Origin: Candidatus Scatocola faecipullorum
GTDB taxonomy: Bacteria > Pseudomonadota > Alphaproteobacteria > RF32 > CAG-239
Length of the DNA stretch: 64,000 bases
Reading direction: 5' to 3'
Assembly (NCBI GenBank): GCA_018714685.1
Contig: DVNC01000021.1
Span: 76,758-140,757 of the forward strand
The notes under the pieces were generated by a model, which was not told the origin of the DNA, did no database searches, and saw nothing but the letters and a program-made list of their open reading frames with translations. Shown in pieces: positions 279 through 58,427 of the stretch. The position numbers and the translations under genes were made by a program. Positions within the stretch are counted from its first letter, which is position 1. Every line of letters begins with the position of its first letter.

Positions 279-767
279 ATGGAAATTATCCTTTTGGAAC
301 ATGTTGATAAATTAGGTAAAATGGGCGACAAAGTAAACGTTAAAAACGGTTATGCCCGTAACTACCTGTTGCCGCAGAAGAAAGCTTTGCGCGCTACCGA
401 AGCTAATGTTGCTTATTTTGAAAAACAGAAAGCCGAACTGGAAGCCCACAACAAGAAATTGCTGGAAGCTGCCACGGCTAAAGCCGAAGCTCTGAAAGGC
501 TTCAGCGCCATGTTGATCCGTCAGGCTGCCGAAACCGGTCAGCTGTATGGTTCCGTTACCATTCGCGACATTGCTTCCGCTATCAAAGCTGCCGGTTTTG
601 ATGTTGAACGCCGTTGCGTTTATATGGAAAGCCCGATTAAAGATCTGGGTATCTACGAAGTTAAGCTGAACCTGCATCCGGAAGTTACTCAGACCATTCT
701 GGTTAACGTTGCCAGAACAGAAGATGATGCGAAGAAGCAGGCAAAGGCTTATTCTCCCGCAGAATAG
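279..767 (+). CDS. rplI: 50S ribosomal protein L9
   Basis: MEIILLEHVDKLGKMGDKVNVKNGYARNYLLPQKKAL is the canonical L9 N-terminus. The gene follows rpsR. Confidence 0.95.
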   Translation: MEIILLEHVDKLGKMGDKVNVKNGYARNYLLPQKKALRATEANVAYFEKQKAELEAHNKKLLEAATAKAEALKGFSAMLIRQAAETGQLYGSVTIRDIASAIKAAGFDVERRCVYMESPIKDLGIYEVKLNLHPEVTQTILVNVARTEDDAKKQAKAYSPAE

Positions 768-786
768 AACTTTGTCCGGCTGGGGT

Positions 787-866
787 TAGAGCAATTTTGC
801 GAAGCGTTAAAATTTCATGTACACAGGTGTACGTTAGAATTTTTTAGTTTCCCGGAAATCGTTCTA
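787..866. repeat. GTAC-centred palindromic element, copy A (after rplI)
   Basis: Outer arms tagagcaattt / aaatcgttcta, centre catGTACacagGTGTACg. The left part caattttgcgaagcg resembles cagattttgcgag of copies B, G and J. Confidence 0.6.
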
Positions 867-908
867 TTTACGCAGGCTGTTCAAAGTTTATCTTTAATTC
901 TGAAAAAC

Positions 909-19533: not shown

Positions 19534-21063
19534 ATGCAAAGAATCGAAAATATGCCCAGACCTGAAATTATTTTGGTTGCCGATACGGTAGCCCGTGAGA
19601 AAAACATTGATAAAGAAGATGTTTTTGAAGCAATGGAAATTGCCATTCAGAAGGCTGCCCGTTCCAAATACGGTTTCGAACACGACATTCGTGCGACGAT
19701 TGACCGCAAAACCGGCGCCATCAGTCTGGCCCGTTACCGTGAAGTGGTTGATGAGATTGTTCCGGCGGAAGGCGAAGAAGACGACAGTCAGAATGCAACC
19801 AAAATTTTGCTGGAGGATGCTTTGGCTTACGATGAAAATGCCAAAGTCGGCGATTTTATCATTGATGAGCTGCCGCCGATCGATTTCGGCCGCATTGCCG
19901 CCCAGACCGCAAAGCAGGTTATTGTTCAGAAAGTTCGCGATGCCGAACGTAATAAACAATTTGAAGAATACAAAGAAAAAGTCGGTACGATTATTAACGG
20001 AACCATCAAACGAATCGAGTTCGGCAATGTTATTCTCGATATCGGCAAAGCGGAAGCCATTCTGCGCCGCGATGAAATTATTCCGCGGGAAAAATTCAAA
20101 AACGGCGACCGGGTTCGCGCTTATGTCCTTGATGTTCGCCGCGAGAATAAAGGGCCGCAGATTTTCCTTTCCCGTACTTGTCCGGAATTCTTGGCCAAGC
20201 TGTTTACGCAGGAGGTTCCGGAAATTTATGACGGCGTGGTTAAAATTATGGGCGTTGCCCGTGATCCGGGTTCAAAAGCGAAAATTGCCGTTAAAGCCGA
20301 TGATATGACGGTTGACGCCGTCGGTGCCTGCGTCGGTTTGCGCGGTATTCGCGTTCAGGCGGTGGTTACCGAACTGCAGGGCGAAAAAATCGATATTGTT
20401 CCTTATTCCGAAGACAAGGCTCAGTACATTGTCAGTGCTTTGGCTCCGGCCGAAGTGACCAAAGTCGTTTTGGATGAAGAAAACAACCGTATTGAAGCGG
20501 TTGTTCCGCAGGAGCAGTTCTCCATTGCCATCGGCCGCCGCGGACAAAATGTTAAACTGGCTTCCCAGCTGCTGGGCTGCGATATTGACGTTTTGACCGA
20601 AGAACAGGAACAGGAACGCCGCTCAAATGAAAATAAAGTTCGTTCACAACGCTTTATGGAAGCCTTGGACGTTGACGAGATGATTGCGCATCTGTTGATT
20701 GCCGAAGGTTTCTCTACCGTGGACGAAGTTGCATTGGTTCCGCTGAGCGAACTGTCCGAAATTGAAGGTTTTGATGAAGACGTTGCTTCCGAATTGCAGT
20801 CCAGAGCCAAGGCCTTTATCGAAAAACGCAATGCCGAATTTGCCAAGAAGAGTGAAACTCTCGGTATTGACGAGAAACTCAAAGGCATTGAAGGGCTGGA
20901 TCAGGATATGATTTTGACACTGGCCGATAAAGGTGTTAAAACCATTGACGACTTGGGCGATTTAGCCGCAGACGAACTGATGGAAATGCTCGGGGAGAAT
21001 GTTCTTTCCGAAGTAGAAGCTAATCGGATTATTATGGCGGCTCGCGCCCACTGGTTTGAATAA
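19534..21063 (+). CDS. nusA: Transcription termination/antitermination factor NusA
   Basis: 509 aa with S1, KH (IGRRGQNVKLASQL) and C-terminal HhH repeats. Confidence 0.97.
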   Translation: MQRIENMPRPEIILVADTVAREKNIDKEDVFEAMEIAIQKAARSKYGFEHDIRATIDRKTGAISLARYREVVDEIVPAEGEEDDSQNATKILLEDALAYDENAKVGDFIIDELPPIDFGRIAAQTAKQVIVQKVRDAERNKQFEEYKEKVGTIINGTIKRIEFGNVILDIGKAEAILRRDEIIPREKFKNGDRVRAYVLDVRRENKGPQIFLSRTCPEFLAKLFTQEVPEIYDGVVKIMGVARDPGSKAKIAVKADDMTVDAVGACVGLRGIRVQAVVTELQGEKIDIVPYSEDKAQYIVSALAPAEVTKVVLDEENNRIEAVVPQEQFSIAIGRRGQNVKLASQLLGCDIDVLTEEQEQERRSNENKVRSQRFMEALDVDEMIAHLLIAEGFSTVDEVALVPLSELSEIEGFDEDVASELQSRAKAFIEKRNAEFAKKSETLGIDEKLKGIEGLDQDMILTLADKGVKTIDDLGDLAADELMEMLGENVLSEVEANRIIMAARAHWFE

Positions 21064-21075
21064 AACGCGTTCTAT

Positions 21076-21175
21076 GGCCGGCTAGTACAGATTTTGCGGG
21101 TCGGGAAAATGCTCATGTACTTCTGTGTACACTCCGCTTTTCCCACCCTGAAATCTTACTATCCGGCTCATATAA
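21076..21175. repeat. GTAC-centred palindromic element, copy B (nusA-ylxR spacer)
   Basis: ggccggctagtacagattttgcgggtcgggaaaatgctcatGTACttctGTGTACactccgcttttccc...gaaatcttactatccggctcatataa. Identical to copy G at most positions by eye. Confidence 0.75.
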
Positions 21176-21207
21176 CCTATTTTGTTTTTTTATTAACAGG
21201 TTTGTTT

Positions 21208-21817: not shown

Positions 21818-24283
21818 ATGACAGAAGATAATGCAAAGAGCAAATTAACATTATCGGGAAAATCGACGCTTACTCTCAAAAATCTGGGTGATAAGGCTCA
21901 TACGCACGAAGGCAAAAAAGTTGTGCAGGTGGAAGTACGCAAAAAAAGAGTGATTAATCCGAATGCGCAGCCGGCCGAAAACAATGTTAAGATTGACGAA
22001 GCAACGGCTATGAAACTGAAGCTGATTGCCGAAGCCAAAGAGCATGAGGCCCGCCGCCGTCAGGAAGAAGAGGAGAAAGAACGTCTGCGCCGTCAGGAAC
22101 GCGAACAGGAAGAAAAAGAGCGTTTGGCGCGTCAGGCTGCGGAAGAAGCCAAAAAGGCGGAAATGGTGAAAGAAATCAAATCGGCCCAGATTACAGCTCC
22201 GGTAGTCGAAGCCGAGGAAAAATCTTTTAAGACCAAAGATAAAAAATCAAAAGATTATGATGATGACGAAGATGAAGAGGAAAATTCTTCAAAAAAATTC
22301 CGCAAAGCTTCCGACCTTGAAAAAAGCCGCGAAGATGTATTTGAGCAGGAACGCAAAAAAGTTATGAAACGGAGTTTTGAACCGCAGCGCCGGGGTGGAA
22401 AAGTTAATCTGCACAGCATCGGCAGCGGTGATGACGACGATGACGATTATGGTTTCGGCGGGCCGCGGCGCCGCTTTAAGAAAAAACAGCCTAAACCGGT
22501 TCAACCGGTTCAGCCGCAGGAAAAGGTTATTAAAGAAGTTATTATTCCTGAAATTATTACGGTTCAGGAGCTGGCTAACCGTATGGCCGAGAAGAGTGCC
22601 GATGTTATCAAAAAGCTAATGTCTCTGGGGGTTATGGCAACCATTAACCAGCCGATTGATGCCGATACGGCGCAAATCGTGGTCGAAGAACTGGGACACA
22701 AGTTTAAGCGCGTGGCCGACAGCGATGTTGAAGAAGCTATCAAGGGTGCGGAAGATACGCCGGATCAGATGCTGCCGCGGGCACCGGTGGTTACGGTTAT
22801 GGGGCACGTTGACCATGGTAAGACTTCTTTGCTGGATGCCTTGCGCGAGACAAACGTTGCCGCACGCGAAGCCGGCGGTATTACCCAGCATATCGGTGCA
22901 TATCAGATTGTGACGCCGAAAGGTGACAAGATTACCTTTATTGATACGCCGGGTCACGAGGCCTTTTCGGAAATGCGCGCGCGCGGTGCCAAAGTGACCG
23001 ATATTGTGGTTTTGGTCGTGGCTGCCAATGATGGCATTATGCCGCAGACAATTGAAGCTATCCGCCATGCTCAGGCGGCGGAAGTGCCGATTGTTGTGGC
23101 TATTAACAAAATTGACCTGCCGGGCGCCGACCCGATGAAAGTTAAGACTGCTTTGCTGCAGCACGGCATTGCGGTGGAGGAACTGGGCGGCGAATCGCTT
23201 TGTGCGGAAGTTTCGGCAAAGAAGCGCATCAATATCGATAAGTTGTTGGAAGCTATTCTGCTGCAGGCTGAGATTCTGGATTTGAAAGCGAATCCGAACC
23301 GGACGGCTGACGGTACGGTCATTGAAGCCAAAATGGAAAAAGGCCGCGGTTCGGTGGCAACGGTTTTGGTTCAGCGCGGAACGCTCAAGGTCGGCGACAT
23401 TTGTATTGCCGGCAAAGAATGGGGACGTGTTCGTGCCATGTTTAATGAAATGGGGCACAAAGTTCAGGAAGCCGGTCCGGCAACTCCGGTAGAAGTTCTC
23501 GGTTTGCAGGGAACACCTGCGGCCGGTGACGATTTTACGGTTGTTGCTGATGAAAATCAGGCTCGTGAAGTAACCAATTATCGTATCCGCAAAGAACGTG
23601 ACGCCAAACTGGTAAAAAGCGCCAAGTCAGCGATGGAACAGATGCTGGATAAAATTAAATCCGGCGAAATCAAACACTTGCCGGTTATTATCAAAGCTGA
23701 CGTTCAAGGGTCGATTGAGGCAATTGAAGGAACGTTGAACAAGTTGTCGAATGATGAAGTCAGTGTTCAAATTCTGCACTCGGCGGTCGGTCCGATTTCC
23801 GAATCCGACATTACGCTGGCGAAAGCTTCAAACGCTTTTGTAATCGGGTTTAACGTTCGTGCCATTCCGCAGGCGCGGGATATGGCCCGTCGCGACGGTG
23901 TTGATATTCGTTATTATTCAATTATCTACGATGTGGCCGATGACGTGAAGAAAGGTTTGGAAGGCATGCTGTCGCCCGAACTCAAAGAGAAGATTCTCGG
24001 TTATGCCGAAATCCGCAATGTCTTTAATATTACCGGGGTGGGCAAAGTTGCCGGCTGTATGGTTACCGAAGGGCTGGTCAAACGCGGTGCAAAAGTCCGC
24101 CTGCTGCGTGACAACGTCGTTATCCATGACGGCAATCTCGGCCAACTCAAACGTTTCAAAGAAGACGTCAAGGAAGTTAAAGAAGGCTATGAATGCGGTA
24201 TGAGCTTTGAAAACTATAATGACATTCAGGTCGGTGACTTTATTGAATGTTATGAGATAGAGGCTATTGCCGCCAAACTGTAA
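21818..24283 (+). CDS. infB: Translation initiation factor IF-2
   Basis: 821 aa with a charged low-complexity N-terminus, then the GTPase [25 protein letters not shown] and NKID. Confidence 0.97.
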
Positions 24284-24297
24284 ATGTTTCTGACCGG

Positions 24298-24383
24298 GAA
24301 CTGGCAGGGAAATTGCAGGACGGAAGTGTCCTTCCGTACGTTTGTGTATGTTTCGGTACTTCCGCCTTTATTTTCCCAGCCTG
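24298..24383. repeat. GTAC-centred palindromic element, copy C (after infB)
   Basis: ctggcagggaaattgcaggacggaagtgtccttccGTACgtttGTGTATgtttcggtacttccgcctttattttcccagcc. Inner arms ggacggaagt / acttccgcc. A degenerate F-type copy may follow at about 24400-24500. Confidence 0.7.
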
Positions 24384-24576
24384 CAACATTTTAAGTGAGG
24401 GGCATTATGCCGGTTATTTTGTTGAATATGCATGTCGTTCAAAAGCAACGGTGCCGCATGTTCCTTTCTCAGAACCGTCGGTGAGAGCAGGGGCAAAAAT
24501 TAAGAATTAGTTTTCCCGGCCGGGCATATTTTCAGGTTGAGGTCAGGAATATCAAGTTAGGATAAGGAATAAGAAA

Positions 24577-28079: not shown

Positions 28080-28349
28080 ATGTCGATTACAAATGAAAAA
28101 AAACAGGAATTAATTAAAGAATTCGGCCAGACCCCGGGTGACACCGGTTCTCCGGAAGTTCAGATTGCCATCTGGACCTACAGAATCAACTCTCTGATTG
28201 AGCACTTCAATACGCATCAGAAAGATCTGCACTCCCGTTTGGGCTTGATGAAGATGGTCAGCCGTCGTCGTCACCTGTTGGATCACCTGAAATCAAAAAG
28301 CGAAAGTCGGTATCAGGATCTGATTAAGAAGCTCGACCTCCGTAAATAA
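28080..28349 (+). CDS. rpsO: 30S ribosomal protein S15
   Basis: 89 aa. [11 protein letters not shown]...[30 protein letters not shown]-like S15 pattern. Confidence 0.97.
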
Positions 28350-28472
28350 GATTGATTTTATGCGGTATCTAAAGCAAAAAATGCGAGTACGAAAAAATTC
28401 ATGTACTTTTATGTACATTAAAATTTTTTCGTCTCTGTTTTTCACTTTATCTACTCCCCTAAAATCAATCTT
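28348..28472. repeat. GTAC-centred palindromic element, copy D (rpsO 3' UTR)
   Basis: Perfect 13-nt terminal inverted repeat aagattgatttta / taaaatcaatctt. Inner perfect inverted repeat acgaaaaaatt / aattttttcgt. Centre catGTACttttatGTACa. The left end overlaps the rpsO TAA. Confidence 0.85.
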
Positions 28473-28540
28473 CGGGGGTTTAGGTGTTCAGCCTAAATCA
28501 AACCTTAAAGTAATTCGTTTTATGGTTTGAGAAAATTTTT

Positions 28541-32534: not shown

Positions 32535-32825
32535 ATGGCAGATATTACTTTTGACGCAAAACTGCGTGAAAAAGCAGGTAAGGGGGCAGCTCGTGCATGT
32601 CGTCGTGAAGGCCGCGTTCCCGCGGTTATTTATGGCGGTAACAAAGAAGCCCTGATGATCAGCTTGGATCCGGTTCAGCTGGAAAAAGCTTTGGACATGG
32701 TCGGTTTCTATGACGCCGATATCGAAATCAATGTTGACGGCAAAAAACATAAGGTTGTTTGCCAGGATGTTCAGTTTCATCCGGTAAGCGATATGCCGTT
32801 GCACGTCGATTTCCTCAGAAAATAG
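32535..32825 (+). CDS. rplY: 50S ribosomal protein L25 (short form, no Ctc C-terminal domain)
   Basis: REKAGKGAARACRREGRVPAVIYGGNKE...VQFHPVSDMPLHVDF is the L25 fold. 96 aa. AAGGAA RBS. pth lies downstream as usual. Confidence 0.85.
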   Translation: MADITFDAKLREKAGKGAARACRREGRVPAVIYGGNKEALMISLDPVQLEKALDMVGFYDADIEINVDGKKHKVVCQDVQFHPVSDMPLHVDFLRK

Positions 32826-32933
32826 TTTTATAGACTATCTAAGGCGATTTTACGCGGACTCAAAATTTACGTACTTCTTGTGCGCTGAAATTTTTCTTGC
32901 CGTTAGAAATCGCCTTATTTATGTCTCTAAAAC
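32825..32933. repeat. GTAC-centred palindromic element, copy E (after rplY)
   Basis: Outer inverted repeat gttttatagac / gtctctaaaac. Perfect inner inverted repeat taaggcgattt (32840) / aaatcgcctta (32907). Centre acGTACttcttGTGCGc. Begins at the last base of the rplY TAG. Confidence 0.7.
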
Positions 32934-32957
32934 CGTTTTTTCAAATAGGGAGAGAAA

Positions 32958-35912: not shown

Positions 35913-37022
35913 ATGGGTTTTAATTGCGGAATCGTCGGTTTGCCGAATGTGGGAAAATCAACTTTGTTTAATGCCCTGACGCAGACCATTGCAGCGCAGG
36001 CGGCCAATTTTCCCTTTTGTACGATTGAGCCGAACACCGGACGGGTGGCCGTTCCCGATGCCCGGCTGGATAAACTGGCCGAGATTGTCAAACCGCGGAT
36101 GGTGACTCCGACACAGCTGGAATTTGTCGATATTGCCGGTTTGGTAAAGGGAGCCTCCAAAGGCGAGGGACTGGGTAATCAGTTTCTGGCCAATATCCGC
36201 GAGGTTGATGCGATTATTCACGTTTTACGCTGTTTTGAGAATGATAATATTACCCATGTCGAAGGGTCGGTTGACCCTATCCGCGATGCGGAAATCGTTG
36301 AAACCGAATTGATGATTGCCGATTTGGAATCACTGGAAAAGCGTTATGACCAGGTACAGAAAAAAGCCAAAACCGGCGAGAAGGAATATGTGGTGCGTGA
36401 GGCGGTCATGCGTCCGGTTATTGAGGCACTGAAGGCCGGAAAACCGGCTCGTACCGCTGCGCCGGCGCCAACGGAAAAAGATGCCTGCAAAGAATATAAA
36501 ATGCTGCAGCTGCTGACGGCCAAGCCGGTTTTGTATGTTTGCAACGTTGATGAAGATTCCGCCGCTACGGGCAATAAATTTTCAGATATGGTTATGACCA
36601 AAGCTGCTGCCGAAGGGGCGGGTGCGGTTATCATTTCCGCCGAAATCGAATCGGAAGTGGCGCAGCTGGAATCGGAAGAAGAGAAGAAGGAATTTCTTGC
36701 CTCTCTGGGGCTGGAAGAAACCGGTCTGGCAAAAATCATCCGGGCAGGTTACAAACTTTTGGGGCTGGAAACCTATTTTACCGCCGGGCCGAAAGAAGTG
36801 CGTGCCTGGACATTTCTGAAAGGTTCAAAAGCGCCGGTTTGTGCCGGTATCATTCACTCCGATTTTGAACGCGGTTTTATTCGTGCGGAAACGATTTCAT
36901 ACGATGACTTTGTCAAATACGGTTCCGAACAGGCCTGTAAAGATGCCGGTAAAATGCGTTCGGAAGGCAAAGATTATGTTGTAAAAGACGGGGATATGAT
37001 GAATTTCCTCTTCAATGTTTGA
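35913..37022 (+). CDS. ychF: Redox-regulated ATPase YchF
   Basis: [19 protein letters not shown]...[10 protein letters not shown] and the C-terminal TGS-like domain ending MNFLFNV. Confidence 0.97.
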
Positions 37023-37028
37023 TTTTGC

Positions 37029-37237
37029 TAAAGGCTTGTCATGCTTGTAATTTTTTCACTCGTGTAGCTGGATGTACACGTCGTTCAAAAGTTACTTCGC
37101 AGCACAAGCCTTTATCAAAATCAACGTTTAAAAGCTTGCCATACTTGTAATTTTTATTCGTGTAGCTGGATGTACACGTTGTTCAGAAGTTACTTCGCAG
37201 CATAAGCCTTTATTGAAATCAACGTTTAAAAGTTTGT
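37029..37237. repeat. Tandem duplication (about 2.1 copies of a 98-100 nt unit) of an F-type palindromic element
   Basis: Units start at 37029, 37129 and (partial) 37227. Each has arms aaggcttgt / acaagcctt (copy 2: ataagcctt) and centre gtgtagctggatGTACAcg. Confidence 0.85.
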
Positions 37238-38010: not shown

Positions 38011-38487
38011 ATGCGTCTGGCGTTGTTTCAACCTGACATTCCGCAAAATACCGGCACATTATTGCGTCTTGGAGCATGTTTGGACATTGAGCTTGATATC
38101 ATAGAGCCGTGCGGGTTTATTTTCTCCGAGAGGACCTTAAAACGGGCGGGAATGGATTATCTGGACATGGTGAGATACCGTCGTCACCATTCCTGGGAGC
38201 ATTTTTTGCAATATCGGGCCGAGCATCCGGAAGAATACGGACGAATCGTGCTTTTGACAACACATGCCAGCGAGCCTTATTATAATTTTGAATTTCGGCC
38301 GAACGATATTATCCTGATGGGACGCGAATCGGCCGGCGTGCCGGAGGAAGTACATCAAACCGCCGATGCCCGCCTGCTGATTCCGATGAATCACAATGCA
38401 CGGTCAATCAATGTGGCCGTGTCGGCGGTGATGGTGGTGGGGGAGTGTCTTCGCCAAGTAAACGGTTTTCCTGCTATGGAGGATTAA
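38011..38487 (+). CDS. trmL: tRNA (cytidine/uridine-2'-O)-methyltransferase TrmL (SpoU/TrmH family)
   Basis: MRLALFQPDIPQNTGTLLRLGAC...LLMGRESAGVP...IPM...RSINVAVSA are the SPOUT knot motifs. GGAGAGGAG RBS. Confidence 0.9.
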   Translation: MRLALFQPDIPQNTGTLLRLGACLDIELDIIEPCGFIFSERTLKRAGMDYLDMVRYRRHHSWEHFLQYRAEHPEEYGRIVLLTTHASEPYYNFEFRPNDIILMGRESAGVPEEVHQTADARLLIPMNHNARSINVAVSAVMVVGECLRQVNGFPAMED

Positions 38488-38576
38488 TACAGATTTTGCG
38501 AGTGGGGAAATGCTCGTGTACTAAGGTGTACACTCCGCTTTCTCCTCTCTAAAATCTTATTACTCCTCTCATATAA
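38479..38576. repeat. GTAC-centred palindromic element, copy G (overlaps the trmL 3' end)
   Basis: ggaggattaatacagattttgcgagtggggaaatgctcgtGTACtaagGTGTACactccgctttctcctctctaaaatcttattactcctctcatataa. Confidence 0.8.
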
Positions 38577-38690
38577 GTCTCTGCGGGTAGCTGATACTGC
38601 TTTTTTTTGATTGATTCTTTGTACCGGTATGATATGACAAAACAAAATCAAGTTATTTTGTTTTTATTATCAACTAAAAAACTAATTTTT

Positions 38691-39671: not shown

Positions 39672-40178
39672 ATGAATAAAAAAACTTCATCTGCTATTGC
39701 ATTCAACTCCGGTGATTATGTTGTTTATCCGGCACACGGCGTCGGTAAAGTTGCCGATATTTCCAAACAGAAAATTGCCGGTTCGGAGTTGGAATTGATC
39801 GTTGTTAATTTTGCCAAAGACAAAATGACTTTGCGTATTCCGATGGCCAAAGCCGAGAATGTCGGATTACGCAAAATCTCTGAAGCTTCGACCATGAATG
39901 ACGCCTTAAACGTTTTGAAAGGCAAGGCCAAAGTTAAAAAGATTATGTGGTCACGCCGCGCCCAGGAATACGAGAACAAAATCAATTCCGGCAATCCGGT
40001 TGCCATTGCGGAGGTTGTCCGCGATTTGTACCGCAATGAAAATCTGGCCGAACAATCTTACAGCGAACGTCAAATCTATGAGCAGGCGCTTGACCGCTTG
40101 GCCAACGAAGTTGCCGTTTGCGACAATATTACTTCGGAAGAGGCTACTAAAAAGTTGCTTTCCATCCTCGCAAAATAA
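39672..40178 (+). CDS. carD: CarD-family transcriptional regulator
   Basis: FNSGDYVVYPAHGVGKVADI...MTLRIPM is the CarD/TRCF RNAP-interacting domain. 168 aa. Confidence 0.9.
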   Translation: MNKKTSSAIAFNSGDYVVYPAHGVGKVADISKQKIAGSELELIVVNFAKDKMTLRIPMAKAENVGLRKISEASTMNDALNVLKGKAKVKKIMWSRRAQEYENKINSGNPVAIAEVVRDLYRNENLAEQSYSERQIYEQALDRLANEVAVCDNITSEEATKKLLSILAK

Positions 40179-40188
40179 TTTGTATAAA

Positions 40189-40280
40189 GGGTAACTAATA
40201 CAGAAATATCAGGGCGGAAGTGTCCTCACGTACTAAAGTGTATGCTCCGGTACTTCCACCTTTATTTCTTATTATTTACC
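40189..40280. repeat. GTAC-centred palindromic element, copy H (after carD)
   Basis: Outer arms ggtaactaatacagaaata / tatttcttattatttacc, inner arms ggcggaagt / acttccacc, centre acGTACtaaaGTGTATg. Confidence 0.7.
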
Positions 40281-40319
40281 TCATTCTCCAAATTATTTTT
40301 AGAAGAAATATATAAAAAA

Positions 40320-40347
40320 GAGTCCCTAAATCGGGACTCTTTTTTTT
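40320..40347 (+). terminator. Rho-independent terminator
   Basis: gagtccc-taaatc-gggactc followed by T8. Confidence 0.75.
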
Positions 40348-44136: not shown

Positions 44137-45108
44137 TTAATAAACGACTTTGGTTAAGTATAATCCGCAGGCAGGGGCGTTGACCCCGGCGGCGGCACGG
44201 TTCTTCGCCTCTAATATCCGTTTGACATCTTCGGGGTGCAAATGTCCGTCGCCGACCATCTTCAGCGTGCCAACCATATTACGCACTTGGTGGTGCAGGA
44301 AAGAGCGGGCTTCGACAATGAAATGAATTTCTTCTCCTCTGACCTCAATATCCAGTCTGTCCAGCGTTTTAACCGGGGATTTGGCCTGGCATGCCGCGGC
44401 GCGGAAAGAACTGAAATCATGGTGCCCGATAAGATAACCGGCTCCCTCACGCATTTTTTCAACATCCAAAGGCACCGGAACCCACCAAACCCGGTTTTTT
44501 TCCAATACGGCCGGAGCCCGGCGGTTAAGAATCCGGTAGAGGTAACCGCGTCCTCTGGCGCTGAAACGGGCATGGAAATCATTTCCGACTTTTTCAACCG
44601 CAATAACGCTGACCGGAGCTTCCATTTCGCGCAAACGGGCGTTTATCGCTTCCCGTAACTTCCAATCGACCAAATCTTCTTTTAAGTCGAAATGTGCAAC
44701 CTGAGCTGTGGCATGGACGCCGGCGTCTGTTCTTCCTGCTCCGGAAACAATGATTTTATCGGTCTTCTGCAGGCGTCTTCCGGTGCCCGCGTCCTCACGT
44801 ACGTCTATGTACGCTGCGGTTCTGCGCTCCGTGGAGCCACCAGCATAAGCCTCACTAAAATCATTGTTGAAAAAAGCATCGGTCTTCTGCAGGCGTCTTC
44901 CGGTGCCCGCCTCCTCATACAATTCTTGAATGGGGAAATCCTCTTCTGATTTTTCCTTGTTATTAAGAGAGCAGGTATCCGTGTCGTTGACAGGAGTGAA
45001 GCAGTTCAGGGCTTTTTGCAAATAGTCCTGCACCGAGGGGCCGTCCAGTTGTTCCTGCCAGCCGAGGAGGCTGGTTCCGTCATATTCGATTGTTATTTTG
45101 TAGCGCAT
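44137..45108 (-). CDS. truA: tRNA pseudouridine-38/39/40 synthase TruA carrying an in-frame repeat insertion
   Basis: MRYKITIEYDGTSLLGWQEQ...SVQ and the catalytic GAGRTDAGVHA. 323 aa, versus about 250-270 aa for TruA proteins I know. Confidence 0.9.
   Translation of the reverse strand: MRYKITIEYDGTSLLGWQEQLDGPSVQDYLQKALNCFTPVNDTDTCSLNNKEKSEEDFPIQELYEEAGTGRRLQKTDAFFNNDFSEAYAGGSTERRTAAYIDVREDAGTGRRLQKTDKIIVSGAGRTDAGVHATAQVAHFDLKEDLVDWKLREAINARLREMEAPVSVIAVEKVGNDFHARFSARGRGYLYRILNRRAPAVLEKNRVWWVPVPLDVEKMREGAGYLIGHHDFSSFRAAACQAKSPVKTLDRLDIEVRGEEIHFIVEARSFLHHQVRNMVGTLKMVGDGHLHPEDVKRILEAKNRAAAGVNAPACGLYLTKVVY
44747..44917. repeat. GTAC-centred palindromic element, copy I, plus a duplicated left arm, inside the truA ORF
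   Basis: Terminal inverted repeat acaatgatttta (44747) / taaaatcattgt (44856). Centre cacGTACgtctatGTACgctgcggt. An exact 33-nt repeat occurs at 44758-44790 and 44878-44910. Confidence 0.8.
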
Positions 45109-51910: not shown

Positions 51911-53227
51911 ATGATGGAAGAGACCCTTTTTTCAAATAACGTCAAACGTCCTTTGGCTGACCGCCTGCGTCCGCAAAGCCTTAAAGAGGTTGTGGGGCAG
52001 GAACATATTGTCGGCGATGATGCGCCGTTGGGACGAATGATTAAAAGCGGCAAGATTACCTCCTTTATTCTCTGGGGGCCTCCCGGCTGCGGAAAAACAA
52101 CAATCGCCCGTTTGATTGCCGAGAATACAAATTTATATTTTGAGCAGATTTCCGCCGTTTTTTCCGGCGTGGCCGATTTGAAACGGGTGTTTCAGTATGC
52201 GCAGGAACGTCGGGCCACGCAGGGAAAAGGCACTTTGCTGTTTGTCGATGAAATTCACAGGTTTAACAAATCGCAGCAGGACGGCTTTCTGCCCTATGTG
52301 GAAGACGGCACGATTATTCTGGTCGGAGCAACGACGGAGAATCCTTCTTTTGAACTTAACGCGGCGTTGCTGTCGCGGTGTCAGGTTTTTGTTTTGAACC
52401 GTCTGAACGAAGATAATTTTGAAGAACTGCTGGCGCGGGCAGAACGGGAGACCGGACGGAAGCTTCCGGTTGACGGAGAAGCGCGGCAGATTATGAAATC
52501 GACCGCCGACGGGGACGGTCGGTATATCCTTAATTTGGCGGAAAGTGTCTGGGCTTATGCCAAAGAAGGAGAGGTTTTTGACAAAGACAGCATTCTGAAA
52601 GTCATCCGTTCACGGGCACCGATTTATGACAAGGGGCGTGACGGTCACTATAACCTGATTTCGGCAGTGCATAAATCGCTGCGCGGTTCCGATGTCGATG
52701 CGGCGTTATATTGGGCAGCGCGTATGCTGGAGGCGGGAGAGGATCCGAAATATCTGCTGCGGCGGCTGACCCGTTTTGCCGTTGAAGACGTTTCGTTGGC
52801 AGAGCCTAATGCCGTAACTCAGGCCATTGCCTGCTGGGAGACATACGAGCGGCTTGGTTCGCCGGAAGGCGATTTGGCGATTATGCAGTTGGTGGCTTAT
52901 CTGGCGACGGCGCCGAAATCCGTGGGCGTTTACAAAGCGATGTATAAAGCCCGGGAACTTGCCCGCAAGACCGGTTCGCTGATGCCGCCGAAAAATATTC
53001 TGAACGCGCCGACCAAACTGATGAAACAATTGGGTTACAGCGAAGGATATGAATATGATCCCGATTGCGAAGACGGCTTTTCCGGTGCCAATTACTTTCC
53101 CGACGGCATGAGTCGGGTTAAGATTTATTTTCCGGTTGACCGCGGCTTTGAACGGGAGATTAAGAAGAGGGTGGAGTATTTTGATAAACTCCGGAAGGAA
53201 AAGCAAAATCGCAAGGCGGAAAACTAA
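51911..53227 (+). CDS. rarA: Replication-associated recombination protein A (AAA+)
   Basis: LADRLRPQSLKEVVGQEHI...LWGPPGCGKTTIARLIA...LFVDEIHRFNK plus the MgsA C-terminal domain. Confidence 0.95.
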   Translation: MMEETLFSNNVKRPLADRLRPQSLKEVVGQEHIVGDDAPLGRMIKSGKITSFILWGPPGCGKTTIARLIAENTNLYFEQISAVFSGVADLKRVFQYAQERRATQGKGTLLFVDEIHRFNKSQQDGFLPYVEDGTIILVGATTENPSFELNAALLSRCQVFVLNRLNEDNFEELLARAERETGRKLPVDGEARQIMKSTADGDGRYILNLAESVWAYAKEGEVFDKDSILKVIRSRAPIYDKGRDGHYNLISAVHKSLRGSDVDAALYWAARMLEAGEDPKYLLRRLTRFAVEDVSLAEPNAVTQAIACWETYERLGSPEGDLAIMQLVAYLATAPKSVGVYKAMYKARELARKTGSLMPPKNILNAPTKLMKQLGYSEGYEYDPDCEDGFSGANYFPDGMSRVKIYFPVDRGFEREIKKRVEYFDKLRKEKQNRKAEN

Positions 53228-53309
53228 TACAGATTTTGCGAGCAGCCAACAGCCTCACGTACTTCTGTGTACGCTGCGGTGTTGTCTCTCTGAAATCTTA
53301 TTATTTTCC
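53218..53309. repeat. GTAC-centred palindromic element, copy J (overlaps the rarA 3' end)
   Basis: ggaaaactaatacagattttgcgagcagccaacagcctcacGTACttctGTGTACgctgcggtgttgtctctctgaaatcttattattttcc. Confidence 0.8.
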
Positions 53310-53347
53310 TCGCCTATCGACATGAGGGATTTTAAGGACAAGCACAA

Positions 53348-53704
53348 ATGACTGTTTTCAGTGTTTTTTTAGGCGGAGGAATCGGCTCGGTTTTACGCTG
53401 GCTGGTAACCTCGAGAATAGCTTCGCATTGGGGCGTTATGCTGGCCAATGTTTTCGGGGCGATGCTTATCGGCATGGCATCGGAATATTTTTTAAGCCGG
53501 GCGGATTTGCGGCCGGAGGTGCGCAGTTTTATTGTTACCGGTTTTTTAGGCGGTTTTACGACTTTTTCGACTTATTTGCTTGATTTTAATCATTTGCTCA
53601 GTCATGAAAAATGGTCGGAAGCCGGCATTTATCTGGCGGGATCGATTGTGGTCGGTTTTGCTTTTTTGCTTGCCGGATCCAGACTGATGAAACTGTTTCT
53701 GTAG
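53348..53704 (+). CDS. crcB: Fluoride channel CrcB/FluC
   Basis: GGGIGSVLRW...GFLGGFTTFSTY. 118 aa, 4 TM. Confidence 0.9.
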   Translation: MTVFSVFLGGGIGSVLRWLVTSRIASHWGVMLANVFGAMLIGMASEYFLSRADLRPEVRSFIVTGFLGGFTTFSTYLLDFNHLLSHEKWSEAGIYLAGSIVVGFAFLLAGSRLMKLFL

Positions 53705-57898: not shown

Positions 57899-58188
57899 TG
57901 GAAAAGGAAGTCTATCTGAAAATCAAAGGTCGGGTGCAAGGAATCGGTTTTCGCTGGTGGGCAGTTAAAACGGCAGAGGAAATCGGCGGCATTTCCGGCT
58001 GGGTTCATAATGCGGCAGACGGGTCGGTTGAAATTCTGATGAGCGGCGAAGAAGATAATATTGACCGGATGATTTTGGCCTGCCATGCAGGACCGCCGCT
58101 GGCTCGTGTGGACAGCGTGAGTTTTATTGTCGGGCGGCGGTCGGGATTTTTGCCGCCGATTGTGGCAGGTGTATTCAAAAGAGTTTGA
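57898..58188 (+). CDS. acyP: Acylphosphatase
   Basis: VYLKIKGRVQGIGFRWWAVKTAEEIGGISGWVHNAADGSVEILMSGEE. The ATG overlaps the ATP12 TGA (TGATG). Confidence 0.85.
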   Translation: MEKEVYLKIKGRVQGIGFRWWAVKTAEEIGGISGWVHNAADGSVEILMSGEEDNIDRMILACHAGPPLARVDSVSFIVGRRSGFLPPIVAGVFKRV

Positions 58189-58194
58189 AATCCA

Positions 58195-58270
58195 GGGCTT
58201 TCTCTGCGGGTTAAAAGTGTCCTTACCTACTTCTGTGTACGCTACGGTACTTTTGACGACTGTTATTCGA
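58195..58270. repeat. GTAC-centred palindromic element, copy K (after acyP, degenerate)
   Basis: gggctttctctgcgggttaaaagtgtccttaccTACttctGTGTACgctacggtacttttgacgactg. The centre is nearly identical to copy J. Confidence 0.55.
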
Positions 58271-58427
58271 CACATTCTCCAAACTTTTAGCGTTGTTGAT
58301 ATGGCCGACTAAGGCGTTTTTTTCGAACGGAAAGTTGCGCTGATTAATACCAAGGTTTAGGGTTGCATTTAAGGGATTGCTTCATACTTCTTGAAGGTAA
58401 ATTTATAAGCTTTAAGGAGAGAAGATT

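What the first reader, a model, noticed from the sequence alone, without database searches (positions are those of the whole stretch)
38479..38576. Element copy supplies the last codons and stop codon of trmL
The left outer arm of copy G begins at ggaggattaatacag. The final sense codons ATG-GAG-GAT and the TAA of trmL therefore lie inside the arm that pairs with tattactcctc on the right side. The same left terminus (c)taatacagattttgcgag provides the TAA of rarA at 53225. The rpsO TAA (28347-28349) sits in the 13-nt terminal repeat of copy D. Copy E starts at the last base of the rplY TAG. This suggests that insertion happens at, or creates, stop codons and can remodel C-termini.
Basis: seen in the sequence. 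Interest (0 to 1): 0.6.

Follow-up and report, generated by a model that had tools for sequence, protein, structure and literature searches.

The report
Palindromic repeat ends the trmL gene
A 138-base hairpin-forming repeat, common in uncultured gut Alphaproteobacteria, sits on the stop codon of trmL and encodes the enzyme's last four amino acids; this is a known kind of selfish-DNA effect, but this family is unusually strictly tied to stop codons and to the direction of DNA replication.

Summary
The last four codons of trmL (GCT ATG GAG GAT) and its TAA lie in the 5' arm of a nested-hairpin repeat (38456-38592) and pair with 38558-38576.

The repeat has about 35 copies in this 1.74 Mb genome. 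It occurs in 55 of 61 genomes of the taxonomic family and in 16 other alphaproteobacterial families.

In 24 of 29 first-in-array intergenic copies, a same-strand gene ends within the first 31 nt. The stop is either the TAA at the foot (18 copies) or the TA[AG] of TA[AG]TACAG (6 copies, including trmL and rarA).

Orthologues show limited remodelling:
- TrmL keeps its length (158 aa) and only the last four residues change. They co-vary with the 3' arm between species (AMED versus SAAK).
- The variable RarA tail is replaced.
- S15 and L25 are unchanged, so those two cases are close packing.

New here: every copy has its top strand on the G-rich strand, that is, on the lagging-strand template. No Y1, IS110 or TnpB transposase gene is present in this genome.

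Best reading: an RPE/REP-like selfish palindrome. It probably spreads as an ssDNA hairpin and is tolerated only at gene ends.

The scan had already noted this repeat family (e1-3530877, e1-3530878, e1-1176762).

The parts
38011..38487 (+). trmL (SpoU-type tRNA methyltransferase, 158 aa) including its TAA stop at 38485-38487
   Evidence: ORF list. Pfam PF00588 covers residues 2-142. The same gene was called in 10 independent assemblies.
38456..38592 (+). Element copy G: full covariance-model match. This copy lacks a proper outer stem.
   Evidence: R1 match of 112.6 bits. Hairpin of -48.6 kcal/mol, z = -7.7.
38473..38487 (+). Second-tier motif GCTATGG, the variable 5-mer AGGAT and the TAA of TAATACAG. 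These are the last four trmL codons plus the stop, inside the 5' arm.
   Evidence: Alignment to the family consensus T[CA]TA[AT]TGG-N5-[CT]TA[AG]TACAG. The region pairs with 38558-38576.
38512..38538 (+). Apical core GCTCGTGTAC-TAAGGT-GTACACTCCGC. This is the most conserved part of the family and the part that resembles RPE1.
   Evidence: Nearly invariant columns in alignments A1/A2. Sub-threshold TIGR01045 hits fall on this core in other copies.
38551..38577 (+). 3' arm AAAATCTTATTA-CTCCT-CTCATATAAG, complementary to the trmL tail
38601..38608 (+). T8 run after a weak hairpin, downstream of the element. A possible terminator remnant.
   Evidence: Sequence. In 8 of 10 strains a 70-nt half-element lies between the copy and this run.
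53196..53333 (+). rarA copy. The RarA tail NRKAEN and its TAA (53225-53227) are encoded by the 5' arm.
   Evidence: None of 29 orthologous loci has the element.
28340..28480 (+). rpsO copy. The TAA at 28347-28349 is at the foot. The S15 C-terminus is unchanged.
32811..32947 (+). rplY copy. The TAG at 32823-32825 is in the foot. The L25 C-terminus is unchanged.
40167..40304 (+). cdnL copy. The stop is the TAA at the foot. A canonical terminator follows at 40314-40345.
21054..21191 (+). Copy after a 509-aa gene. The stop is the TAA at the foot.
24282..24402 (+). Divergent copy after an 821-aa gene (...EIAAKL*). The same site is occupied in two genomes of another genus.
759..897 (+). Divergent copy. 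The stop is a TAG at the foot.
58170..58295 (+). Weak, partial copy
44739..44875 (+). Related copy lying in frame inside truA. It is antisense to the gene but has the same strand orientation as all other copies.
37019..37236 (+). Two tandem F-type variant elements after ychF. The ychF TGA lies in the outer repeat.

Best explanation
Copy G belongs to an old, family-wide, non-autonomous palindromic repeat of about 138 nt. It has four to five stacked stems with conserved motifs between them and is related to the Rickettsia RPE-type elements.

What the 5' arm does to reading frames:
- The 5' arm carries built-in stop triplets: TAA at the A-rich foot, TA[AG] in TATAATGG, and TA[AG] in TA[AG]TACAG.
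- A gene that runs into the element is therefore closed within 31 nt in two of the three frames.
- In trmL the copy lacks the outer stem. Its second tier replaces the last four codons, and the motif TAA falls exactly on the ancestral stop position.
- From then on these codons evolve as part of the hairpin. They co-vary with the 3' arm rather than keeping an amino-acid sequence.

Which steps are shown:
- The anatomy of the element and the stop overlap.
- The replacement of short, non-domain protein tails.
- The sense orientation of the copies.
- The strict co-orientation with replication.

Which steps are inferred:
- The repeat is propagated or homogenised as a folded single strand on the lagging-strand template. 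That template has the top-strand sequence and carries the conserved G-T wobble.
- Copies survive only where they do no harm, namely directly on the stop codon of a leading-strand gene. There a terminating ribosome can melt the foot, and the element can serve as, or sit before, the terminator.
For: Anatomy and covariation:
- 31 of 43 pairs show compensatory changes among 18 copies in this genome.
- The best copies of 29 other genomes have 40-42 of 43 Watson-Crick pairs.

Stop overlap:
- 18 copies use the stop at the foot and 6 use the TA[AG]TACAG stop, making 24 of 29 against a 12.8% null.
- The pattern is the same in 29 other genomes, with none antisense.
- Ordinary terminators in this genome lie a median of 16 nt from the stop.

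trmL:
- Ten strains carry the copy.
- The same-genus genome G053 has an orthologous copy. It ends TCT GCG GCA AAA TAA and pairs with TTCTTTTGCGCA.
- Element-free orthologues end K[ILM]xK* at the same length.
- One relative (L024) is two codons shorter than its nearest element-free relatives.

rarA: the tail after the conserved EKQ is replaced, and 29 orthologues lack the element.

Element-encoded residues lie beyond the last Pfam domain in TrmL, RarA, RsfS and RlmE.

Orientation:
- 31 of 33 intergenic copies are sense to the upstream gene.
- 35 of 35 copies lie on the G-rich strand, including the three antisense exceptions, although only 59% of genes are on the leading strand.
- In 16 of 16 contigs with several loci, from 9 other genomes, all copies share one strand.
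- 36 of 37 copies in other genomes show positive local GC skew.

Folding strand: there are 111 G-U pairs against 28 A-C mismatches, and one G-U pair is conserved.

Signs of turnover:
- Copy number varies from 0 to 54 or more within the family.
- Tandem arrays occur.
- Strains differ by a half-element indel and by an insert in the apical loop.

Precedents: REP termini supply TAG stops (PMC3733652). [quoted passage not shown]
Against: - No empty-versus-filled polymorphism of a whole copy was seen. The trmL, cdnL and rpsO copies are fixed in 10 strains each, so current mobility of the element itself is not shown.
- No Y1/HUH, IS110 or TnpB gene is in this genome, and Y1 presence in the family does not track copy number. 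MAGs often lose IS elements, which weakens this absence.
- No target-site duplication or conserved target word was found.
- Retention at orthologous sites across genera, with near-perfect pairing, could mean host function rather than selfishness.
- Leading-strand restriction could partly reflect the strand bias of essential genes.
Confidence: 0.6

Rival explanations
1. The elements are not mobile DNA. They are a family of host-selected structured 3'-UTR RNAs or long-hairpin intrinsic terminators. Each is kept because it terminates or stabilises the upstream mRNA. The stop-codon overlap would reflect translation-gated termination.
For: - The orientation is sense, and the foot carries an A-tract and a T-tract.
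- At least four consecutive T follow the 3' foot in 20 of 28 loci, and only 7 of 28 have a separate canonical terminator behind the element.
- Orthologous sites are occupied across genera, and stems change by compensation.
- A G-U pair is conserved.
- At the rplY locus, some relatives show shorter hairpins that look like decayed copies now serving as plain terminators.
Against: - An RNA function does not explain why all 35 copies, including three that are antisense to genes, follow the replication strand.
- The same core sequence at more than 30 unlinked loci needs copying of DNA.
- Several copies sit inside tight operon junctions (rplY-pth, rarA-crcB), where a strong terminator would be harmful.
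- Some copies are followed by a canonical terminator.
- Copy number ranges from 0 to 54 among close genomes.
- Rfam has no match.
Confidence: 0.2
2. For trmL the overlap is mere close packing. The tail AMED is ordinary drift of a hypervariable C-terminus, and the element begins only at or after the TAA.
For: - TrmL length is unchanged at 158 aa.
- TrmL tails after ...FP vary widely among 60 orthologues.
- One element-poor relative (L003) ends AAA ATG GAG AAA TAA, sharing ATGGAG with the window.
- S15 and L25 are clearly close packing.
Against: - GCTATGG-AGGAT-TAA matches the conserved second-tier motif and its spacing, as seen in unrelated loci.
- The tail pairs with CTCCT-CTCATATAA, which is itself the conserved 3' motif.
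- In G053 the tail differs (TCTGCGG-CAAAA-TAA) and pairs with its own 3' arm.
- L003 carries an element remnant, GTTTGTAATGGCTGTCC, directly after its TAA.
Confidence: 0.1
3. The family is a REPIN or a palindrome-associated transposable element, mobilised by a Y1 HUH transposase (RAYT or IS200/IS605 TnpA) by peel-and-paste at the replication fork.
For: - The orientation rule is the one described for IS200/IS605, with the active strand on the lagging-strand template (PMC5027513).
- The substrate is a hairpin.
- Like REPs, the copies lie downstream of genes and supply stops (PMC3733652).
Against: - PF01797 is not found in this genome. It is found in only 25 of 61 family genomes and is absent from those with 39-54 copies. 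A genome with 16 Y1 matches has no element.
- No conserved 4-5 nt target lies 5' of the left end.
- The elements are 138-nt nested hairpins, not 20-40 nt REPs.
Confidence: 0.1

Closest known systems
Rickettsia palindromic element RPE-1 (Ogata et al. 2000, 2002; NCBIfam TIGR01045)
   Same: - A palindromic repeat of 100-150 nt in small alphaproteobacterial genomes.
- It can be read as protein and alters proteins without destroying them.
- The reverse-strand translation of the apical core gives weak RPE1-domain hits.
- Related copies lie in frame inside truA and hemW of this genome (earlier notes e1-3530878, e1-1176762).
   Different: - All hits are below the curated cut-off: 28.4 bits at best, and 12.8-15.2 bits for the 3'-end copies.
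- Most copies here are not internal. They are anchored on stop codons, in sense orientation and polarised with replication. I do not know these features to be described for RPEs.
GTAG/CGTC-tagged REP elements (Di Nocera et al. 2013, PMC3733652)
   Same: They lie mostly downstream of genes, between unidirectional or convergent ORFs. [quoted passage not shown] Some copies are intragenic.
   Different: REPs are 20-40 nt single hairpins with a GTAG or CGTC tag and usually come with a RAYT gene. Here the element is a 138-nt multi-tier hairpin with a TAAAAA foot, and this genome has no RAYT.
Coxiella burnetii QMITE1/QMITE2 (PMC5896051)
   Same: These MITEs overlap the 3' ends of functional genes by 1-50 bp. 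They supply C-terminal residues and stops without a notable change in protein size, and they are hot spots for a second element.
   Different: QMITEs have terminal inverted repeats and direct repeats, and no replication polarity was reported. Here no target duplication was found, and the stems co-vary tier by tier.
IS200/IS605 peel-and-paste ssDNA transposition (PMC5027513, PMC3333891)
   Same: Strand-specific orientation relative to the replication fork, with the folding strand on the lagging-strand template. Recognition depends on a hairpin.
   Different: No Y1 transposase is present in this genome, and there is no correlation with copy number across the family. No conserved target tetranucleotide was found.
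Terminator-like and transcribed repeats: SPRITE of S. pneumoniae (reviewed in PMC10969869) and Neisseria Correia elements (my own knowledge)
   Same: Dispersed repeats that fold into hairpins in mRNAs and can terminate or process transcripts.
   Different: Those are not reported to sit on the stop codon as a rule. Correia elements have TA duplications and occur in both orientations.

Membership tests
RPE-1 (TIGR01045 RPE1 domain) | Translation matches the RPE1 domain above the curated cut-off (30 bits) | tested here: not met
   Six-frame search of this genome. The best hits are 28.4 and 24.6 bits, both for intragenic copies. The 3'-end copies score 15.2 and 12.8 bits. Only profile positions 14-33 match.
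RPE-1 (TIGR01045 RPE1 domain) | Dispersed palindromic repeat of 100-150 nt | tested here: met
RPE-1 (TIGR01045 RPE1 domain) | In-frame insertion inside ORFs | tested here: inconclusive
   Two related intragenic copies exist. The copy in question replaces a C-terminal tail and is not an internal insertion.
RPE-1 (TIGR01045 RPE1 domain) | DNA homology to the Rickettsia RPE-1 consensus | not testable with these tools
R1 hits 16 other alphaproteobacterial families, but I could not tell which they are.
REP / REPIN with RAYT | A RAYT (Y1_Tnp, PF01797) gene in the genome | tested here: not met
   No candidates in this genome. There is no relation to copy number across 61 genomes.
REP / REPIN with RAYT | Short (20-40 nt) hairpin with a terminal GTAG or CGTC tag | tested here: not met
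   The element has 138 nt and four to five tiers. The foot consensus is TAAAAAnnTYG.
REP / REPIN with RAYT | Located downstream of genes, with termini supplying stops | tested here: met
IS200/IS605-derived palindrome-associated element | Orientation locked to the lagging-strand template | tested here: met
   35 of 35 copies in this genome, 16 of 16 contigs in other genomes, and a replication-driven GC skew.
IS200/IS605-derived palindrome-associated element | Conserved 4-5 nt target abutting the left end | tested here: not met
   Left flanks share only A-richness.
Classical DDE-type MITE | Direct target-site duplication flanking terminal inverted repeats | tested here: not met
   No consistent direct repeat was seen at the ends of about 50 copies.
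Intrinsic (Rho-independent) terminator | Hairpin followed directly by a U-run | tested here: inconclusive
   At least four T follow the 3' foot in 20 of 28 loci. The stem is about 60 bp rather than short and GC-rich, and some copies are followed by a canonical terminator.
Rfam RNA families | Match at gathering threshold | tested here: not met
   No matches in the 64-kb window.

The most novel reading that the evidence does not exclude
The family is a replication-polarised, stop-codon-anchored mobile hairpin module.

- It copies itself as folded single-stranded DNA on the lagging-strand template, using an enzyme that is not an HUH, IS110 or TnpB protein and may be host replication or repair machinery.
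- At the RNA level it acts as a translation-gated terminator or insulator. A ribosome reaching the stop codon in the foot melts the outer tiers and lets transcription run on. Untranslated transcripts terminate.
- Gene tails caught in the arm then evolve under base-pairing constraints rather than protein constraints.
Probability: 0.2. Interest if true: 0.75.

Novelty: new variant of a known kind. Interest (0 to 1): 0.45.

Why it matters
Repeats that donate stop codons and a few C-terminal residues are already known from REPs, QMITEs and RPEs, so the trmL case alone is a modest annotation point. The last residues of TrmL, RarA, RsfS, RlmE, PepA and one oxidoreductase in this organism are repeat-encoded and should not be read as conserved protein sequence.

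The family as a whole is more interesting, for four reasons:
- It is present in nearly all genera of a large clade of uncultured gut Alphaproteobacteria and in other small-genome Alphaproteobacteria.
- Its stems co-vary tier by tier, and this covariation includes protein-coding codons.
- Its foot coincides with stop codons about six times more often than ordinary terminators do.
- Every copy follows the replication strand, although no known ssDNA transposase is present.

This combination gives a concrete handle on how RPE-like palindromes spread and why they are tolerated, a question left open since their discovery in Rickettsia.

Tried and rejected
- **Rfam.** A scan of the window found no family.
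- **L25 truncation.** I asked whether the element had cut the L25 C-terminal domain. Rejected: L25 is the short 96-aa form in all 40 genomes, with or without the element.
- **Resident transposases.** Y1/HUH, IS110 and TnpB are all absent from this genome.
- **TA or other target-site duplication, or a conserved target word.** None was found.
- **Promoter in the second tier.** TATAATGG, often preceded by TG, could act as an internal promoter. I consider this weak. The motif co-varies with its partner (TATAAC/CGTTCT, TATTTT/CAAACT, TCTATGG/CATATA), and a consensus scan is not above shuffles.
- **Outer stem as a pre-existing host terminator whose loop was invaded.** Partly rejected, because outer stems share the consensus AAAAnnTYG/CRAnnTTTT. 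However, the rplY copies do use the gene's own AGAAAA as the outer arm.
- **Strain-level empty sites.** I looked at trmL, cdnL and rpsO and found none among 10 assemblies each. Only a half-element indel and an apical-loop insert vary.
- **Integron attC reading.** By inspection, no RYYYAAC/GTTRRRY core sites are present.

Full report
**1. What is at the coordinates**

trmL is a SpoU-type methyltransferase. Pfam PF00588 covers residues 2-142 of 158. The gene runs from 38011 to the TAA at 38485-38487 and ends ...GGT TTT CCT GCT ATG GAG GAT TAA.

Bases 38470-38590 fold into one long hairpin of -48.6 kcal/mol, z = -7.7 against shuffles. In it the last codons CUAUGGAGGAU and UAAUA pair with UAUUA and CUCCUCUCAUA on the 3' side.

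- The rarA TAA at 53225-53227 lies in the same TAATACAG motif.
- The AA of the rpsO TAA (28347-28349) lies in the 13-nt outer repeat.
- The rplY TAG (32823-32825) lies in the foot of copy 32811-32947.

**2. The element family**

nhmmer and then a covariance model (R1: 138 positions, 43 pairs, built from 18 copies in this genome) find about 35 copies in the 1.74 Mb genome. Ten of them are in the window.

The layout, 5' to 3', is:
- an A-rich foot, (T)AAAAnnTYG
- T[AC]TA[AT]TGG
- a variable 5-mer
- [CT]TA[AG]TACAG
- two variable stems
- an apical core, CTCAYGTAC-N4-6-GTACRCTSCGG
- the complementary half, ending CRAnnTTTT.

Thirty-one of 43 pairs show compensatory changes within this one genome. 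The best copies of 29 other genomes have 40-42 of 43 Watson-Crick pairs, although their stem sequences differ.

R1 matches 55 of 61 genomes of the taxonomic family (22 of 23 genera), with 1 to 54 or more copies each. It also matches 16 other alphaproteobacterial families, mostly with small genomes. Rfam has nothing.

The RPE1 protein profile (TIGR01045) hits only the apical core and stays below its cut-off. The family is therefore RPE-like, but membership is not shown.

**3. Stop codons**

I counted copies in this genome.
- In 18 copies a same-strand ORF of at least 70 aa stops at the foot (relative position -4 to +12, mostly TAA).
- In 6 copies the ORF reads through the outer arm and stops at the TA[AG] of TA[AG]TACAG (relative position 29). 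These genes are trmL, rarA, rsfS, rlmE, pepA and an FAD oxidoreductase.
- Together that is 24 of 29 first-in-array intergenic copies. Random intergenic placements give 12.8% (p about 2e-17).

Among the best copies of 29 other genomes, about 20 have the stop at the foot, three have it in TATAATGG, and none is antisense.

Measured from the outermost paired base, the stop lies within +/-2 nt in about 43% of copies. For 416 ordinary hairpin-plus-T-run terminators of this genome the figure is 7%, and the median distance is 16 nt.

The last sense codon is NAA in 12 of 16 foot-type genes, against 23% genome-wide.

**4. Do C-termini change?**

*TrmL.* The closest element-free orthologues end GFPK[ILM]xK* and have 158 aa. 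The window ends GFPAMED*, also 158 aa.

The same-genus genome G053 is syntenic, and its TrmL is 90% identical. It has an orthologous copy whose TrmL ends GFPSAAK*, encoded by TCT GCG GCA AAA TAA GGCAG. Those codons pair with ...CTTATTCTTTTGCGCA.

In both species the last four codons match the family's second-tier motif. Both pair with their own 3' arm, yet they share few bases with each other. So the tail is element sequence, and it evolves under pairing.

The stop position is ancestral. One relative (L024) is two codons shorter than its nearest element-free relatives. Another (L026) has TAG directly abutting TAAAAG. All ten strain assemblies of this species carry the copy.

*RarA.* Twenty-nine orthologues lack the element. 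They carry a variable basic tail of 2-16 residues after the conserved EKQ. In the window the tail is NRKAEN, encoded by the arm.

*L25.* It is the short 96-aa form and matches full length in all 40 genomes. In the 30 loci I read it ends HVDF[LMV]R[KRQVA]* at the same position. Where the element is present (6-7 genomes) it starts 0 nt after the stop. Ordinary terminators at that locus lie 4-25 nt away.

*S15.* It ends LDLRK* as usual.

In all tail-replacement cases the element-coded residues lie beyond the last Pfam domain.

**5. Orientation**

Thirty-one of 33 intergenic copies are sense to the upstream gene.

More strikingly, all 35 copies lie with their top strand on the G-rich strand. This includes the one antisense intergenic copy and the two intragenic copies, which are antisense to their genes.

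The skew is replication-driven. Genes on both strands of a contig show the same sign, about +/-0.13. Only 59% of genes are on the leading strand.

In 9 other genomes, all 16 contigs with two or more separate loci have every copy on one strand. Thirty-six of 37 copies in other genomes show positive local skew.

The G-rich strand is the lagging-strand template. The top strand also carries a conserved G-T wobble, and overall there are 111 G-U pairs against 28 A-C mismatches. This is the orientation rule described for IS200/IS605 single-strand transposition (PMC5027513).

Yet PF01797 is absent from this genome and does not track copy number in the family. IS110 and TnpB are also absent.

**6. Terminator or not**

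At least four T follow the 3' foot in 20 of 28 loci, and only 7 of 28 have a separate compact terminator behind the element. One of those seven is the cdnL copy.

Several copies sit inside tight junctions: rplY-pth, and rarA-crcB, which overlap or are at most about 25 nt apart in relatives. At the rplY locus some relatives carry shorter hairpins that look like decayed copies.

A role as terminator or mRNA hairpin is plausible but untested.

**7. Signs of turnover**

- Copy number varies widely between genomes.
- Tandem arrays occur.
- A 70-nt half-element indel lies next to the trmL copy. It is present in 8 of 10 strains.
- G053 has a partial duplicate that repeats the last 13 nt of trmL together with the left arm.
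- A separate 110-190 nt insert occupies the apical loop in four copies of this genome. It is polymorphic at the rpsO copy, present in 1 of 10 strains.
- No whole-copy presence/absence polymorphism was caught.

**8. Verdict**

The phenomenon has precedents. REP termini supply TAG stops (PMC3733652), and Coxiella QMITEs overlap gene 3' ends (PMC5896051). I therefore rate it as a new variant of a known kind.

Two features set it apart: the strict replication polarity without a known ssDNA transposase, and the tier-by-tier covariation that extends into coding sequence. The mechanism (ssDNA hairpin copying plus selection against polarity) is inferred, not shown.

Noticed in passing
window 28340-28480 (rpsO copy) versus locus L206; own genome C41:5567, C35:29849(-), C21:169(-), C47:169(-): A separate 110-190 nt sequence (ATTCCGACTAAGTTG...ACTATTTTTACTGCCGCAG) sits inside the apical GTAC loop of four element copies. 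At the rpsO copy it is present in 1 of 10 strain assemblies, where it replaces TATGTACA. Something still moves into the apical hairpin.
   Followed up: partly
window 38577/38578 junction; loci L117-L126: A 70-nt right-half element lies directly after the trmL copy in 8 of 10 strains. It is missing in the window strain and in two others.
   Followed up: yes
L111 (G053) about 2520-2700: A partial tandem duplicate repeats the last 13 nt of trmL plus the element's left arm. The second copy (TGGAGATAAAATAATACAG) resembles the window's version of the arm.
   Followed up: partly
window 37019-37236: Two tandem F-type variant palindromes follow ychF. The ychF TGA lies inside the outer inverted repeat TTGATTTTG/CAAAATCAA, so the stop-in-foot rule extends to a second subfamily.
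   Followed up: partly
window 32538-32825 and loci L127-L156: Ribosomal protein L25 is the short 96-aa form, without a Ctc-type C-terminal domain, in all 40 genomes of the family searched. From my own knowledge, Alphaproteobacteria usually have the long form.
   Followed up: partly
window 53196-53350; loci L161-L190: In relatives, rarA and the downstream crcB-like gene overlap or lie at most about 25 nt apart. In the window the 138-nt element splits this junction, and AAGGA before the crcB ATG follows the element.
   Followed up: partly
window 40314-40345: A canonical bidirectional terminator (AAAAAAGAGTCCC-loop-GGGACTCTTTTTT) lies 9 nt after the cdnL element copy. There the element sits between the stop codon and the real terminator.
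   Followed up: yes
L003 about 645-665: In the TrmL orthologue ending KMEK*, a remnant of the element's left arm (GTTTGTAATGGCTGTCC) directly follows the TAA. This suggests a lost copy at the same site.
   Followed up: no
own genome contig C42, 10-30 kb (upstream of the window): The GC skew changes sign here, consistent with the origin/parS region noted earlier by the scan. The genome-wide skew is strong (about +/-0.13) and is carried by genes on both strands.
   Followed up: partly
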